Shown one piece after another: positions 1,607 through 10,369 of a stretch of DNA of 10,937 nucleotides. Position 1 is the stretch's first letter; every line of letters begins with the position of its first letter. The notes under the pieces were generated by a model. The model made no database searches. It worked only from the letters and a program-made list of their open reading frames with translations, and had not been told where the DNA came from. The DNA comes from Candidatus Heimdallarchaeota archaeon. Its GTDB lineage: Archaea; Asgardarchaeota; Heimdallarchaeia; JABLTI01. The translations under genes were made by a program, and so were the position numbers. The stretch covers positions 1-10,937 of the forward strand of contig JAHLVW010000013.1 of assembly GCA_019058275.1 (NCBI GenBank), in the 5' to 3' direction.

Positions 1607-3688
1607 ATGAGCTTATTACCTGATAGATTAAAAACAGTAAAAGTTGTTGTTCCACAAGAGAATACTAGAAGTTTGTTTAGATTTCTTTCAACTTGTGATG
1701 ACCTCGATATTATTGATGTACAAAAAAGACCTTTTGATATTGGATCTTTTGATCATGGCTCAGAAATCAAAGAATTACATGAAAATTTCGATAAAGTCAT
1801 TGAACACTTCGAAATCAAAGATAAAGTTGGAAGAGTCAAGAAAGTTAAAATTGAAGATCAAAAGATATCTACAGTGTTAAAGAATATCGAGCAAATGTCA
1901 AAAGATATTATTGTGAAATTAAATCAAATTGATGAACGAATCATCCTAGCAGAACAAGAACTTATGAAGAATAAATCTGTTATTGAAATTGCACAAAATT
2001 TAATTCCGTTTGGCTTTAGCTTTGAAGATTTAGATGATGAACGACCATACTTCAGTGTTATCGTAGGTAGATTGGATACTAAAAGAATTCCAAGATTTAA
2101 ATGGAATCTAGATGCAATTACTGATAGTAATTATGTACTTAAAGAATCTAAATCTAAAGGTAATTATTCATTTATCGCTATTGGATTTCTAGAACGTTAT
2201 CAAGAAGATATCAGCCGACTTCTAGTTGCTTATGGTTTTGAAAAAATCTCAATTCCAGAGCGAATATCTGGAAGCCCTGAAAAAGTGGTTCAAAAGAATA
2301 AAGTGAAAAATGAACGTTTAGTAGAGAAAATAAAGGAACTCAAAAAAGAAGCGGATTCCATTATCGATAAACATGGCTCGGAAATTCTTGCTTTTAGTGA
2401 GCAATTGGCTATAGAAGAGAATTTCTTAAAGATTTCAAACATGTTAAGACATACAAAAAGAAATGCTACTTTTTGGGCATGGATTCCTCAGAAAAAAACC
2501 AGTAAATTTGAGAAAGGAATTAAATTAGCTACAGATAAAAGTACTATTGTTGAATTTTCTAAACCTGTATTCGAAGAGTCTGAATTTCCAACTAAAACAT
2601 CTGTACCTAAATTTGCTCGAATTTATGATTCACTAGTTAGTGCTTATGGCGTTCCAGGATACAACGAGTTTAACACAGCTATCCTAATCCAAATTTTCTT
2701 CCCAATTATGTTTGGTATCATGTTCGCAGATGTTGGTCACGGTTTATTGTTTACTCTTCTTGGTGTTTATGGTATGACATTAAGAAACAAAAAATTAGGT
2801 ACTGATAGCTTCATGGATGAAATCAAAGGTTACTTCAAGAGCGGTTATATGTTAATGATTGTCTCTGGTATTGCTGCTATGATTTTTGGAGTTTTATTTG
2901 GATCCTACTTTGGTGCTACTCATCACGTTGCTGACTGGGTGCCACAAGCTATTTGGTTTAGTCCCGAAGATACAGAACACCTTTATAATGGAGCTTCTTC
3001 AGTTATCTTAATGCTTGAGCTCTCCCTACTAATTGGTATGATTCATATGACCATTGGTTATGTCTTGCGATTTATTAATAGTAGTAAACACAACCACTAC
3101 ATAGAAGCCTTCACAGTAGCATTGATGTGGGCAAGTTTCCACTGGGCATTATTCATCCTTGTCTTCACTTTTGGAACTAATTTCATGAACTGGTTCAGTG
3201 CAGATCTCACAGGAACATTCGATTTAGCATTATTGTCAATTGGTGGTGAACCAATTCAATTCTTCACAATCAATGGTGCATTATGGTTCTTCTTGGGTGC
3301 TTTTGCTATACCAATATTAGTTATGACCATTTATCTAACTACACATGGTTCAGATGGTATTGCTGAATTAATTGAATTATTATTGTCCACCCTATCAAAT
3401 ACTATAAGCTATGCTCGGATTTTTGCTATGAATGCTGTGCATGGAGCTTTATCACATATATTCCTCCTCACTGACTTTGTCAAAGGGGAAGGTCTCGGTG
3501 TTATCAATTTCATTGGTATGGCTATAGGTGCTTTAGTGATACTAGCTTTAGAAGGATTATTCTCATTCATTCAAACCTTAAGGTTACAATGGGTAGAATT
3601 CTTCGGAAAAGTTGGCTATCAAGGCACTGGCTTTAAATTCCAAGCAATGACTATTGAACGAAAATACTCAAGTATTGTTCAAAAATAA
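1607..3688 (+). CDS. atpI: A/V-type ATP synthase/ATPase subunit I (subunit a)
   Basis: 693 aa. Soluble coiled-coil N-terminal half, then WAWIP, PTK...YGVPGYNEFN, FFPIMFGIMFADVGHG, a hydrophobic multi-TM C-terminal half, SNTISYARIFA with the essential Arg (equivalent to Vph1 R735), LEGL and LRLQWVEFFGK...G..F. Confidence 0.95.
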   Translation: MSLLPDRLKTVKVVVPQENTRSLFRFLSTCDDLDIIDVQKRPFDIGSFDHGSEIKELHENFDKVIEHFEIKDKVGRVKKVKIEDQKISTVLKNIEQMSKDIIVKLNQIDERIILAEQELMKNKSVIEIAQNLIPFGFSFEDLDDERPYFSVIVGRLDTKRIPRFKWNLDAITDSNYVLKESKSKGNYSFIAIGFLERYQEDISRLLVAYGFEKISIPERISGSPEKVVQKNKVKNERLVEKIKELKKEADSIIDKHGSEILAFSEQLAIEENFLKISNMLRHTKRNATFWAWIPQKKTSKFEKGIKLATDKSTIVEFSKPVFEESEFPTKTSVPKFARIYDSLVSAYGVPGYNEFNTAILIQIFFPIMFGIMFADVGHGLLFTLLGVYGMTLRNKKLGTDSFMDEIKGYFKSGYMLMIVSGIAAMIFGVLFGSYFGATHHVADWVPQAIWFSPEDTEHLYNGASSVILMLELSLLIGMIHMTIGYVLRFINSSKHNHYIEAFTVALMWASFHWALFILVFTFGTNFMNWFSADLTGTFDLALLSIGGEPIQFFTINGALWFFLGAFAIPILVMTIYLTTHGSDGIAELIELLLSTLSNTISYARIFAMNAVHGALSHIFLLTDFVKGEGLGVINFIGMAIGALVILALEGLFSFIQTLRLQWVEFFGKVGYQGTGFKFQAMTIERKYSSIVQK

Positions 3689-3727
3689 AAAAAAGTAGAA
3701 AATCTGCTATATGCAGATTTCTTTTTT
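3687..3727. terminator. Bidirectional hairpin terminator candidate between convergent atpI and zinc-finger genes
   Basis: A8 tract (3687-3694), stem AAATCTGC (3700-3707) / GCAGATTT (3713-3720) with TATAT loop, and T6 tract (3722-3727). A U-tract follows the stem on both strands. Confidence 0.7.
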
Positions 3728-3789
3728 CCTATTAAATTTGAGATTATGTGAGGTGTAATTAGATACTCCTCATAAGATAAGAAATAGTG

Positions 3790-4086
3790 TTAAAATGTAA
3801 ATTCGAATTCTTCTTCTTCAGGTTCTGGTTTTACTCTTCTCATAGCATCAGCAATTATTTCTGGATGCTGATCTCTTACATGTTTTTTCCAATTTTTTAC
3901 CCATAATCCACAATAACAACACATATATCTTTCTTCTCTCTCTTCCTTCTGTTCAAGGTATTTCATATATTTTGGATGTCTTCTTTTCATATGCTCTTCT
4001 TCTTCTTCTATGATACTCTGACAAATTTTGCATATTTTCAGACCATCCTTTCTTCTCACAATGAAGTCATTTATACTTCTAGCCAT
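3790..4086 (-). CDS. Small protein with two tandem C2H2-type zinc fingers (C-x2-C-x9-H-x4-H-P) and an acidic C-terminal tail; function unknown
   Basis: CKIC-QSIIEEEEE-H-MKRR-HP and CCYC-GLWVKNWKK-H-VRDQ-HP have identical spacing. ATG start is preceded by AGGGGG. The ORF fills an otherwise empty gap and has a terminator candidate downstream. Confidence 0.85.
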   Translation of the reverse strand: MARSINDFIVRRKDGLKICKICQSIIEEEEEHMKRRHPKYMKYLEQKEEREERYMCCYCGLWVKNWKKHVRDQHPEIIADAMRRVKPEPEEEEFEFTF

Positions 4087-4275
4087 AATGATAAGCCCCC
4101 TGGCTTATTATAAAATGCTTAGCAGGCATTTACTTCGGTATTCACATACTCGCTGATTATTTATTACATGAAAAAATATTATATGAACATTTCTCTTTAA
4201 ATAGTAGTTTTTTAATGATTTTTTGTCAAAGAAACTAAAATCTCTCATCTTGCTTTAAAAATGTTAGAAAGAGAC

Positions 4276-4289
4276 ATAAGGTTTTTAAA
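4276..4289 (+). promoter_or_regulatory. Putative BRE/TATA promoter of the ribosomal protein operon
   Basis: ATAAGG followed by TTTTTAAA (4282-4289). Canonical archaeal spacing puts the TSS at about 4311-4314, where GC content jumps and the first hairpin starts. Confidence 0.65.
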
Positions 4290-4312
4290 CAGATTATTCA
4301 AGTTTGGACTAC

Positions 4313-4484
4313 TGCCGCGCTGAATTTCTCTAAGCGTGTGCATAATTGGGCTCCGACCTTGCACGAGATGTGCAGAAGGGGAGTCATGCCTCTTGGAGGT
4401 TTCAGGAATTTAATCATAGATTCACTGGATTAAAAACTATCATAAGAGTGGGAAAATCCCCATAAATAGTCGTCTTTACGATTA
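4313..4484 (+). ncRNA. Candidate structured cis-regulatory leader RNA (r-protein leader) or small ncRNA upstream of uL22
   Basis: Six hand-folded hairpins: 4313-4342, 4349-4385, 4388-4400, 4401-4429, 4448-4463 and 4467-4484. GC is about 55% over 4313-4400 versus about 23% over 4201-4300 (hand count). Several G-U pairs work only on the + strand. No recognisable tRNA, 5S, SRP or RNase P signature. Confidence 0.55.
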
Positions 4485-4519
4485 CTAAAAAGAAAAATCA
4501 AAGATATGAGGAAATGCGT

Positions 4520-4981
4520 ATGCCACAATATGGATACTCGATTTACGGGTTAGATCCGGATCGTACAGCCATTGCCAGTGCACGAGAAATTGACATTAGT
4601 CCAAAGGCTGCTAGAGAAATTTGCAACACAATTAAAGGGATGTTTCTTGACAAAGCAAAAGAATATCTTGAAGATGTTATTGTCATGAAAAAAGCTGTTC
4701 CATACAAACGACACAAGAAGCACGTTGCCCATCGAAAAGAGCTTACTAAATGGCCTGCTGGTCGATTTCCAATAAAAGCTGCAAAGAGAATCCTTGAAGT
4801 TTTAGATAATGCTGAAAATAATGCTGAATTCAAGGGTTTAGATGTAGAAAGAATGAAGATTATTCACGCTTGTACTCATAAGGGGATGATAGTCAAGAGA
4901 TTTTTCCCTAGAGCCCATGGATCATCTTCCCCTAAATTCAATTATCTTACCCATATTGAAATAGCCATTGAAGAGGTTTGA
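4520..4981 (+). CDS. rpl22: 50S ribosomal protein uL22 (archaeal L22)
   Basis: MPQYGYS, ISPKAAREIC, AVPYKRHKKHVAHR, GRFPIKAA, NAENNAEFKGLD, PRAHG, THIEI. ATG 4520 has SD GAGGA at 4508-4512; the ORF track uses ATG 4514. Confidence 0.97.
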   Translation: MPQYGYSIYGLDPDRTAIASAREIDISPKAAREICNTIKGMFLDKAKEYLEDVIVMKKAVPYKRHKKHVAHRKELTKWPAGRFPIKAAKRILEVLDNAENNAEFKGLDVERMKIIHACTHKGMIVKRFFPRAHGSSSPKFNYLTHIEIAIEEV

Positions 4982-4983
4982 AC

Positions 4984-6099
4984 TTGTCTGCAGTAAAACA
5001 TTTCATAAGAAAAGGTGTTCGTCAAGCTGAAATTGATGAGTACTTAGGTAAAGAATTAGCAAGAGCAGGATACGGAGGAGTTGATATTACAAAAACTCCC
5101 CTGGGTGAACGAATCACCATCTATGCATCTAGACCTGGTATTGTCATCGGTCGTCGTGGTAAAAACATTAGAATGATCACTGATGAATTGGTTTCTAGAT
5201 TTGGTTTGGAAAATCCTCAAATTGAAGTCAAAGAAGTTGTAAACCCTGAATTAAATGCTAAAGTTATGGCTTTTTCACTTGTCTCTGCCATTGAACGAGG
5301 AGTTCATCGCCGTAGAGCAGCATATTCAGTTCTAAGAAGAGTTCTGAATGCTGGAGCAAGGGGATGCGAAATAATTATTGCTGGCAAGCTTACAAGTAAA
5401 CGATCTCGTCATGAAGCTTATAGAATGGGTCTTCTTGCTAAAAGTGGAGAAATTGGTTCTCAACTCGTTAGAAGAGCTAATGCAACTGCTGTTTTGAAAT
5501 TAGGAACAATTGGTGTTACTGTCAATATTATGAGAGGCGATATCCCTCTTCCAGATGATATTAGCATTTTGGCTGTACAATTGGGTGAAGATGCTGTCAT
5601 TGAAGAAGTGGTTACTCCTGAAATTAAAGTAAAGGAAGTAGAACCTAAAAAAGTGAAAGAAGCACCAAAAGAGAAAGAACCCAAGAAAGATGAGAAGAAA
5701 GACAAGCCAGTTACTAAGAAGAAAACTGACTTGGACAAAAAGGTTGAAGAATTATCTGACTTAATTGAAAAGACTCCTAGTGAAGCAAAGAAACCAAAGA
5801 AAACAAAAACAAAGAAACCAGCTGTGAAGAAAACACCTGCAGCTGTAAAAACAGAGAAACCAAAAGCTTCAGCTAAAAAGGACGTCAAGAAACCTGAAAC
5901 AAAGAAACCAAAGACAACTAAGAAAGAAGATGATAAAGCAAAAACAACAACTACAAAGAAAGCAGTTACTACTAAAACTGCTGCTAAAAAAGTAGAAGAA
6001 AAACCCAAAGCAAAAACAACAAAGAAAATAACTAAAGCTTCAACTTCTAAAAAAGAGACTAAAACCTCCAAACCTAAAAAAGAGGAGAAGAAAAAATAA
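4984..6099 (+). CDS. rps3: 30S ribosomal protein uS3 with long Lys-rich C-terminal extension
   Basis: ELARAGYGG, KH domain RPGIVIGRRGKNI, PELNA, GARGCEIIIAGKL, LPDDI. Likely start is TTG 4984 (MSAVKHFI) with SD GAGGT at 4973-4977; the track uses TTG 4978. Confidence 0.97.
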   Translation: MSAVKHFIRKGVRQAEIDEYLGKELARAGYGGVDITKTPLGERITIYASRPGIVIGRRGKNIRMITDELVSRFGLENPQIEVKEVVNPELNAKVMAFSLVSAIERGVHRRRAAYSVLRRVLNAGARGCEIIIAGKLTSKRSRHEAYRMGLLAKSGEIGSQLVRRANATAVLKLGTIGVTVNIMRGDIPLPDDISILAVQLGEDAVIEEVVTPEIKVKEVEPKKVKEAPKEKEPKKDEKKDKPVTKKKTDLDKKVEELSDLIEKTPSEAKKPKKTKTKKPAVKKTPAAVKTEKPKASAKKDVKKPETKKPKTTKKEDDKAKTTTTKKAVTTKTAAKKVEEKPKAKTTKKITKASTSKKETKTSKPKKEEKKK

Positions 6100-9808: not shown

Positions 9809-10369
9809 ATGCCAAAAGCTGTTTATGTTGAAAAAACTGTAGAAACCCCTGAAGGAGTAACAATTGCTCTTAATGGTATGAAAGTAACAGTCACTGGACC
9901 CAAAGGTAGCTTGGAAAGAGATTTCATAGGTGAACCTGTTAAATTGGACTTATCAAAGAATACCTTGAAATTGTCTGTAGCTTTTCCAAGGAAAAGAGAA
10001 CTGGCAATGTTGGGTACCATTGCAGCGCATGTGAAAAATATGATCACAGGTATAACTCAAGGTTATACTTATAAATTGACAATTGTCTATTCTCACTTTC
10101 CTATAACAGTAGATGTTAAACCAAATGAAATCATAATCAAGAATCTTTACGGGCAACGAAACCCAAGAAAAGCAAAGATTTTTGGTGATGATGTTAAGGT
10201 GAAAGTTGACGGTGATGAGATAATCATCACAGGTATAGACAAAGAACATGTTGGTCAAACATCAGCCAATCTTCAAGAAATCTGCAAACTTCGTGGAAAA
10301 TTCCACAAAGATCCTCGTAGATTTATGGATGGAATATGGCTATCAGCTCAATATGTTGGTATAGATTAG
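9809..10369 (+). CDS. rpl6: 50S ribosomal protein uL6
   Basis: PEGV, V.GPKGSL.RDF, GTIAAHVKNMI.G.T.GY.Y, VYSHFPI, GIDKE.VGQTSAN, KDPRRFMDGI. Confidence 0.97.
   Translation: MPKAVYVEKTVETPEGVTIALNGMKVTVTGPKGSLERDFIGEPVKLDLSKNTLKLSVAFPRKRELAMLGTIAAHVKNMITGITQGYTYKLTIVYSHFPITVDVKPNEIIIKNLYGQRNPRKAKIFGDDVKVKVDGDEIIITGIDKEHVGQTSANLQEICKLRGKFHKDPRRFMDGIWLSAQYVGID

What the first reader, a model, noticed from the sequence alone, without database searches (positions are those of the whole stretch)
4313..4519. Candidate undescribed structured leader RNA heading an archaeal uL22-start ribosomal protein operon
Seen: a TATA box at 4282-4289 predicts a TSS at about 4311-4314, giving a ~200-nt 5' leader, and GC rises there from ~23% to ~55%. 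Hand-folded hairpins are packed nearly back to back. H1: UGCCGCGCU 4313-4321 / AGCGUG(U)GCA 4333-4342. H2: GGCUCC-GA-CCU-UGCAC [GAGAU] GUGCA-GA-AGG-GGAGUC 4349-4385, 14 bp with a GA bulge on each strand. H3: GCCUC[UUG]GAGGU 4388-4400. H4: UUCAG-GAAUUUA[AUCA]UAGAUUC-A-CUGGA 4401-4429. H5: GUGGG/CCCAU 4448-4463. H6: UAGUCGU[CUUU]ACGAUUA 4467-4484. Every stem has at least one G-U pair, which suggests selection at the RNA level on the + strand. Established: bacterial S10 and spc operons are autoregulated by uL4 and uS8 through mRNA structures, and only a few archaeal r-leaders are described. I know of none in front of uL22. Inference: a feedback leader bound by an operon product, or a separately processed ncRNA.
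Basis: partly seen in the sequence, partly recalled or inferred. Interest (0 to 1): 0.8.

Follow-up and report, generated by a model that had tools for sequence, protein, structure and literature searches.

The report
Archaeal mRNA leader mimicking uL6 site
The messenger for a large ribosomal-protein operon in one family of Asgard archaea begins with a conserved folded RNA whose unchanging hairpin copies the spot on 23S ribosomal RNA where protein uL6 binds, so it is probably a feedback sensor of a kind not yet described for that protein in any prokaryote.

Summary
The element is real. A conserved TATA box (4282-4289) precedes a ~209-nt leader of the rpl22-to-rpl15 operon. All six hairpins fold as described (core z = -3.4; opposite strand -1.1). 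I found 28 homologs, each directly upstream of rpl22, all in one Heimdallarchaeia family. 23 of 37 pairs show two-sided changes, and there is no Rfam match. Only H1, the base of H2 and the Shine-Dalgarno site occur in all 28; H3-H6 are lost or replaced in some. New here: the invariant top of H1 matches the apex of 23S helix 97 in length and register (12 of 14 invariant bases; p about 0.02, or 0.006 with the stem required). The H2 base resembles the base of helix 42. H97 is uL6's primary site, uL6 latches H97 to H42, and uL6 is encoded in this operon. Best reading (0.6): a uL6-sensing feedback leader. Binding, transcription start and regulation are untested, and each match alone is statistically modest. 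No uL6 leader appears in the 2020 r-leader tables; yeast RPL9B (uL6) autoregulation is the nearest precedent. The scan noted this leader before in one other genome, without the rRNA match.

The parts
4266..4289 (+). Promoter: purine-rich BRE-like stretch and TATA box (4282-4289)
   Evidence: TATA invariant in the 16 aligned homologs; 28-31 nt from its end to H1 in all 28
4311..4311 (+). Predicted transcription start (pyrimidine-A, 21 nt after the TATA box); not measured
   Evidence: Conservation begins abruptly here, 21-23 nt after the TATA box in 16 homologs; inference from archaeal promoter geometry
4313..4342 (+). H1, first hairpin of the transcript
   Evidence: Folds; lower stem has two-sided changes
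4318..4336 (+). Invariant top of H1; 4319-4335 matches the apex of 23S helix 97 (E. coli about 2744-2760, my numbering), the primary uL6 site
   Evidence: 16 of 19 positions invariant in 28 homologs; best match in own rRNAs is H97 at G000:C98:102498-102514
4343..4348 (+). Short A/U-rich linker ending in UU(G)
4349..4385 (+). H2; its 6-bp base (4349-4354 with 4380-4385) resembles the base of 23S helix 42 with strand order inverted; the upper part is variable
   Evidence: 4346-4356 is identical (11/11) to the own 23S H42 3' strand; the base is paired in all 28 homologs with compensatory changes
4388..4400 (+). H3, dispensable
   Evidence: Folds; absent or replaced in L241, L243, L248, L253
4401..4429 (+). 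H4, variable-length hairpin, dispensable
   Evidence: 9 of 10 pairs with two-sided changes; deleted in L253
4448..4463 (+). H5, short hairpin not conserved in sequence
4467..4484 (+). H6, hairpin with a conserved loop motif about 23 nt before the Shine-Dalgarno site
   Evidence: Motif in 23 of 28 homologs, stems vary while staying paired
4508..4513 (+). Shine-Dalgarno-like GAGGAA
   Evidence: Present in all 28 homologs, 11-13 nt before the ATG
4520..4981 (+). rpl22 (uL22), first gene of the operon
   Evidence: PF00237
9396..9788 (+). rps8 (uS8), rival ligand
   Evidence: PF00410
9809..10369 (+). rpl6 (uL6), proposed ligand, 12th gene of the operon
   Evidence: PF00347 and solved uL6 structures; same strand and cluster as rpl22 in 9 genus genomes

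Best explanation
A ribosomal-protein feedback leader (r-leader) that senses free uL6 by rRNA mimicry. Shown: a conserved, covarying structure starts at the predicted 5' end of the rpl22-rps3-...-rps8-rpl6-...-rpl15 transcript, and its invariant hairpin H1 reproduces the H97 apex. Inferred step 1: H1, helped by the H42-like base of H2 next to it, binds the N-terminal domain of uL6 when uL6 exceeds 23S rRNA. Inferred step 2: binding lowers expression of the operon, most likely at translation initiation of rpl22, passed on by translational coupling through the tightly packed genes. Most speculative step: the two invariant H1 bases that differ from rRNA (U-U in place of G-C) make the loop complementary to the Shine-Dalgarno site, so a loop-to-SD pairing may be the switch.
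For: 28 of 28 homologs lie directly upstream of rpl22; 22 of them were fetched through the protein, not the motif. H1 top: 16 of 19 positions never change over an rpl22 tree of 3.5 substitutions per site. A profile built only from leaders finds H97 as its best match in the own 16S+23S: score 15.0 against 7.4 for the next; p = 0.018 against 2000 shuffles, 0.006 with the closing stem required. The same top match appears in four other genus 23S sequences (p 0.02-0.03). At the three variable H1 positions the rRNA base is always among the leader variants. A relaxed H1/H97 pattern occurs exactly twice in the 4.1-Mb genome: in the leader and in 23S (pattern designed after the fact). Unbiased tiling of the core against own rRNA gives H42 as the top match (family-wise p <= 0.003). 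The H42 positions that are invariant in 30 class 23S sequences (GUC) are the best-kept H2 positions (28, 27 and 25 of 28). The divergent homologs keep H1 and the H2 base helix while losing the rest. uL6 N-terminus binds h97 (PMC4199504) and uL6 stabilises the H42-H97 latch (PMC9638911). No U-tract terminator in any leader. The H1 loop pairs with the SD at a median of -4.7 kcal/mol; the rRNA loop gives -0.5.
Against: No binding, expression or transcript data. Each rRNA match is modest and was recognised after the fact. The full covariance model scores H97 at only 5.2 bits, E = 8, and the 19-nt invariant block gives p = 0.12 without the stem constraint, 0.03 with it. The H42 match is weaker against other genus rRNAs (family-wise p 0.02, 0.09, 0.27, 0.40), and L241 keeps the helix but only one of its six rRNA-like pairs. 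The H97 base that docks on H42 (B. subtilis G2780) is U in every leader. That uL6 touches the base of H42 is my recollection of ribosome structures and was not checked. uL6 is a late-assembling protein encoded 5.3 kb downstream. A pyrimidine-rich loop will pair with many purine-rich stretches; H2's own 3' strand often pairs better than the SD, and 4 homologs pair with the SD only weakly.
Confidence: 0.6

Rival explanations
1. An r-leader with a different or additional ligand: eL40 (which also sits against H42 and H97), uS8 (the bacterial spc repressor), or another operon protein with no rRNA mimicry.
For: eL40 and bL36 contact H42, H89, H91 and H97 (PMC11354259), and eL40 is encoded in the genome. 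The H3/H4 junction carries the 5' strand of the 16S h21 uS8 core in 24 of 28 homologs. Several known r-leaders do not mimic rRNA (PMC7247131).
Against: eL40 is on another contig and is not among the operon genes in relatives, so it would give no feedback. The uS8 core needs the G597-C643-U641 triple and A642 on one strand (PMC4176348); the leader has A at 643 and 644, U at 640, and lacks the junction in 4 homologs.
Confidence: 0.2
2. A protein-independent or non-ribosomal cis element: a 5' stabilising structure, or a switch in which the H1 loop pairs with the SD or with H2; the H97 likeness is coincidence.
For: H1 begins 2 nt from the predicted 5' end. The loop is complementary to the SD and to the purine strand of H2. 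The rRNA p-values are only 0.006-0.1.
Against: It does not explain invariance of the stem and of the G-A-A and U-A loop ends while neighbouring stems covary freely, nor a second rRNA-like helix from the same protein site.
Confidence: 0.12
3. A separately released non-coding RNA (about 75-120 nt), for example a decoy or chaperone for uL6 or eL40, cut from the operon transcript.
For: The conserved core is compact, starts at the predicted start site and is followed by an A-rich, poorly conserved spacer.
Against: No U-tract terminator; the TATA-like stretch after H4 is missing in 4 homologs; single copy, always before rpl22. RNase P, SRP, tRNA and 5S identities are excluded.
Confidence: 0.08

Closest known systems
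23S rRNA helix 97 apex and helix 42 (the uL6 site and H42-H97 latch; PMC4199504, PMC9638911)
   Same: H1 has the same three closing pairs, the same 11-nt loop length and 12 of 14 invariant bases; the H2 base has the H42 base pairs including the G-U wobble in 24 of 28 homologs.
   Different: Loop positions 2751-2752 are U-U instead of G-C, so the base that docks on H42 is lost; the lower H97 internal loop is absent; the H42-like helix is inverted in strand order and lacks the bulged C and the K-turn arm.
rRNA-mimicking r-leaders: uL1 (bacteria and archaea), uS8-spc of E. coli, archaeal S15, eL15 and L4 candidates (PMC7247131, PMC10931766)
   Same: Structured, narrowly distributed 5' region of an r-protein operon with likeness to the rRNA site of a protein encoded in that operon.
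   Different: No sequence or structure match to any (Rfam). L6 is not among known or predicted ligands in Table 1 or Table S1 of PMC7247131. None of the passages or supplements searched mentions Asgard, Heimdall or Loki lineages. It lies before rpl22, whereas the E. coli uS8 site lies at rplE.
Yeast RPL9B (uL6) autoregulation (Gudipati et al. 2012, as summarised in PMC8047918)
   Same: uL6 in excess binds a stem-loop in its own transcript and lowers expression.
   Different: 3' end of a single eukaryotic gene, acting through the choice of termination pathway. I could not read the original paper, so whether that stem-loop resembles H97 is unchecked.
Archaeal L7Ae K-turn leader (PMC6298567, abstract)
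   Same: Archaeal 5' leader bound by a ribosomal protein.
   Different: H2 has 2-nt bulges, not a 3-nt bulge followed by tandem G-A pairs; L7Ae was not among the operon genes identified.

Membership tests
r-leader (autogenous ribosomal-protein leader) | Consistently located 5' of ribosomal-protein genes | tested here: met
   28 of 28 homologs directly upstream of rpl22; other pattern hits were coding-region chance matches
r-leader (autogenous ribosomal-protein leader) | Conserved secondary structure with covariation | tested here: met
   97% of cells paired; 23 of 37 pairs with two-sided changes against 6.5 in shuffles and 2-6 in slid controls (alignment fitted to the model). Independent MAFFT alignment: 6 against 2.5. 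R-scape was not available.
r-leader (autogenous ribosomal-protein leader) | Lies within the transcript (start site upstream, no terminator before the gene) | tested here: inconclusive
r-leader (autogenous ribosomal-protein leader) | Binds a protein of the operon and represses it | not testable with these tools
   Needs binding and reporter assays
rRNA-mimic leader for uL6 | Reproduces the H97 apex in sequence and register | tested here: met
   12 of 14 invariant bases; p = 0.018, 0.006 with stem; replicated on 4 more 23S sequences
rRNA-mimic leader for uL6 | Reproduces the neighbouring H42 | tested here: inconclusive
   Family-wise p from <=0.003 (own) to 0.40; sequence likeness lost in L241
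rRNA-mimic leader for uL6 | uL6 encoded in the regulated operon | tested here: met
   9809-10369, gaps of at most 36 nt from rpl22 onward; same in genus genomes
uS8 / spc operator | h21-like internal loop with the G597-C643-U641 triple and A642 on a continuous strand | tested here: not met
   Positions 643 and 644 are A, 640 is U; the junction is absent in 4 of 28
K-turn / L7Ae site, C/D or H/ACA sRNA | 3-nt bulge followed by tandem G-A, A-G pairs; box motifs | tested here: not met
   Inspection of the alignment and folds; no Rfam hit
5S rRNA, RNase P RNA, SRP RNA, tRNA | Match to the family model; no other copy in the genome | tested here: not met
   No hit in the window; RNase P at C22, SRP at C74, a permuted 5S-like gene at C89
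Any Rfam 15 family | Covariance-model match | tested here: not met
   No match over the element at E <= 1 in the window or in 6 divergent homologs

The most novel reading that the evidence does not exclude
The first ribosomal-protein feedback leader in Asgard archaea and the first prokaryotic one for uL6. It rebuilds a two-helix rRNA site (H97 from domain VI, H42 from domain II) side by side in an mRNA, uses the rRNA-divergent loop bases as an anti-Shine-Dalgarno switch over a 19-gene operon, and parallels uL6 (Rpl9) self-regulation in yeast.
Probability: 0.3. Interest if true: 0.8.

Novelty: new variant of a known kind. Interest (0 to 1): 0.6.

Why it matters
Only a handful of archaeal r-leaders are known or predicted, and how archaea balance the proteins of the S10/spc cluster is largely open. 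A uL6 sensor would add a new ligand to the r-leader list and give a cis-regulatory RNA in the archaeal group closest to eukaryotes. It would also connect to the one known case of uL6 self-regulation, in yeast. The natural deletions define a minimal ~75-nt unit (H1 + H2) that can be tested in vitro with one recombinant protein, although the organism is uncultured. The limit on importance is its narrow range: one family among the 83 Heimdallarchaeia genomes searched.

Tried and rejected
Rfam scans of the window and 6 divergent homologs: nothing over the element. Displaced 5S rRNA, prompted by the failure of RF00001 on this genome: rejected, a permuted 5S-like gene lies on C89. RNase P and SRP RNAs lie elsewhere. 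Repeat or mobile element: single copy. Likeness of H1 to 23S helix 11: own H11 differs and was never a profile hit. Likeness of the upper H2 stem to the upper H42 strand: 8/8 in this genome, but other genus rRNAs differ while their leaders do not, so treated as partly chance. uS8 site at H3/H4: core incomplete and dispensable. Pairing of the linker with the first codons: appears with 15 nt of coding sequence, mostly vanishes with 60 nt. Internal promoter after H4: motif absent in 4 homologs. Wider distribution: model search of 83 class genomes and pattern search of 301 phylum genomes found the element only in this family; the 10 outside near-matches inspected lay in coding regions; viral contigs gave nothing. 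The SERF paper on the minimal L6 site and Gudipati 2012 were not held. The sigma-70 promoter scan is not relevant to archaea.

Full report
SETTING. The window is contig C116 of a 4.1-Mb, 32% GC genome. Its closest uL22 relatives are labelled Heimdallarchaeota or Asgard MAGs, including record JABLTI01; from memory that lineage is Gerdarchaeales, which I did not verify. Downstream of the element lie rpl22, rps3, rpl29, rpp29, rps17, rpl14, rpl24, rps4e, rpl5, rps14, rps8, rpl6 and rpl32e on one strand, with gaps of at most 36 nt. In relatives the string continues through five more genes, by their sequences rpl19e, rpl18, rps5, rpl30 and rpl15, and then stops. Upstream is a divergent 98-aa zinc-finger-like gene, so the operon starts at rpl22.

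OBSERVATION. The leader folds better than all 200 shuffles (z = -2.78). The core 4311-4432 gives z = -3.37 on the + strand and -1.13 on the - strand. In 16 homologs the + strand always folds more stably than the - strand, and 13 have z of -2.0 or lower. GC is 54% over 4311-4400 but 41% over the whole interval. Rfam gives nothing over the element, here or in six divergent homologs.

CONSERVATION. I collected 28 homologs: 10 from genomes of the same family and 12 from contigs found through uL22, plus 6 from a motif scan of metagenomes. All sit directly before rpl22, one per genome. Sequence is variable between the TATA box and the predicted start, strongly conserved from 4311, and variable again after 4432. 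The TATA-to-H1 distance is 28-31 nt in all 28. On a MAFFT alignment of 15 close sequences, 98.9% of cells pair and 6 pairs change on both sides against 2.5 in shuffles. On the model-fitted alignment of all 28, 97% pair and 23 of 37 pairs change on both sides against 6.5 in shuffles and 2-6 in slid controls; that alignment leans towards the structure. The element was not found outside this family in 83 class genomes or 301 phylum genomes. Other families have rps19 directly before rpl22 or unrelated leaders.

WHAT IS ESSENTIAL. The divergent homologs act as natural deletions. L253 lacks H3 and H4 entirely; L241, L243 and L248 replace them; L010, L241, L243 and L248 replace the upper part of H2; five lack the H6 motif. 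All 28 keep the top of H1, a 6-bp helix at the base of H2 a few bases after it, and GAGGAA 11-13 nt before the ATG. In the top of H1, 16 of 19 positions never change over an rpl22 tree of 3.5 substitutions per site, while the three variable ones change 6, 3 and 6 times. Invariance of both stem and loop, beside freely covarying stems, points to base-specific recognition.

THE rRNA MATCH. Window 4319-4335 reads GCUGAA-five bases-CUAAGC, the form of the 23S helix 97 apex in this genome (G000:C98:102498-102514). E. coli numbers (2744-2760) are my mapping from memory. A profile made only from the 28 leaders ranks H97 first in the own 16S and 23S, 15.0 against 7.4 for the runner-up. The p-value is 0.018 against 2000 dinucleotide shuffles and 0.006 if the three closing pairs are required; for the 19-nt invariant block it is 0.12 and 0.03. 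Four other 23S sequences of the genus give the same top match (p 0.02-0.03); they are kin, not independent tests. The rRNA base is among the leader variants at all three variable positions, so the only fixed differences are U-U for G-C at 2751-2752. Separately, tiling the core against the own rRNA gave as top hit an 11-of-11 match between 4346-4356 and the 3' strand of helix 42 (family-wise p <= 0.003). The partner strand 4380-4385 matches the H42 5' strand less its bulged C. This second match is weaker against relatives' rRNAs (0.02, 0.09, 0.27, 0.40) and tolerates changes, though the three bases invariant in 30 class rRNAs are kept in 28, 27 and 25 of 28 leaders.

WHY uL6. The N-terminus of uL6 binds h97, and this contact is conserved to yeast L9 (PMC4199504). 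uL6 stabilises the latch between H42 and H97 (PMC9638911; PMC11077053). So the two parts that every homolog keeps both resemble helices of one protein's site, and that protein is in the operon, in all nine genus genomes where both genes were found. In family f3, where rpl22 and rpl6 lie far apart, no such motif precedes rpl22. However, family f2 has the same rpl22-to-rpl6 operon with an unrelated leader, so the operon layout does not require the element. eL40 also touches H42 and H97 (PMC11354259) but is encoded elsewhere. A uS8-like junction at H3/H4 lacks the core triple described in PMC4176348 and is dispensable.

MECHANISM. Shown: structure, position, invariance and rRNA likeness. Inferred: free uL6 binds H1, aided by H2, and lowers operon expression. 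No leader has a U-run over 4, which argues against intrinsic attenuation or a terminated small RNA and leaves translation initiation or decay. The binding unit is 120 nt from the SD, so it needs a link. One candidate: the two rRNA-divergent bases make the H1 loop complementary to the SD (median -4.7 kcal/mol against -0.5 for the rRNA loop), and the C/U variation at 2755 is compatible with pairing to G. This is weak evidence: the loop often pairs better with H2's purine strand, four homologs pair poorly, and it is not clear whether bound uL6 would favour or block the pairing. I put it near 0.3.

COMPARISON AND NOVELTY. It works like the rRNA-mimicking r-leaders and meets the comparative criteria for one; binding is untested. 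L6 is absent from the known and newly predicted ligands in PMC7247131, and a 2024 review mentions uL6 only as a member of the uS8-regulated spc operon. My paper searches found no uL6 leader and no Asgard r-leader, within an open-access library only. The nearest functional precedent is yeast RPL9B, where excess Rpl9 binds a 3' stem-loop (PMC8047918). Earlier notes of this scan saw the leader here and in one other genome, with no rRNA match.

VERDICT. A real, conserved, uncatalogued leader RNA (about 0.95); an r-leader (about 0.8); sensing uL6 through an H97 mimic (0.6). New variant of a known kind; interest 0.6.

Noticed in passing
G000:C89:84586-84712 (outside the window); also L161, L163-L169: 5S rRNA-like gene in circularly permuted order (3' half, capped helix I, 5' half) between inverted flanks; RF00001 passes its cut-off in only 4 of 83 class genomes. 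The scan has reported this several times before.
   Followed up: partly
L085 (G000:C98:98488-102769): The 23S gene spans 4282 nt with several inserts: about 850 nt with an A-rich ORF-like stretch near gene positions 2036-2885, two shorter ones near 3395-3680, and about 60 nt apparently inside the sarcin-ricin loop near 3866-3930 (by eye).
   Followed up: no
L019-L029, about 60-100 nt upstream of rpl22: Family f3 has a different, short conserved rpl22 leader: a small stem with an internal loop that looks like a loop-E (bulged-G) motif, and TTG/GTG start codons.
   Followed up: no
L170-L173, upstream of rpl22: Family f2 has the same rpl22-first operon but another conserved leader: a long stem enclosing a shared AAACCUUAAAAAU stretch. 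Candidate second r-leader.
   Followed up: no
window 3790-4086 (-): 98-aa protein with two C-x2-C-x9-H-x4-H motifs, divergent from the operon and kept at this position in family loci; no Pfam family above cut-off. It appears split in L255.
   Followed up: partly
window 4984-6099 (+): uS3 carries a C-terminal Lys/Thr/Ala-rich low-complexity tail of about 170 aa; family uS3 lengths run to 443 aa.
   Followed up: no
window 3699-3728: Bidirectional terminator-like hairpin with U-tracts on both strands between the V-ATPase subunit I gene and the zinc-finger gene.
   Followed up: no
window 4266-4276: A conserved GAAA-x-GAC stretch 5' of the BRE in the 16 aligned promoters, longer than a usual BRE; possible factor-binding site.
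   Followed up: no
L175, about 200 nt upstream of rps14: In family f4 genome G022 a tmRNA- or tRNA-like end (T-loop-type motif with an insertion) precedes an rps14-rps8-rpl6 unit (by eye).
   Followed up: no
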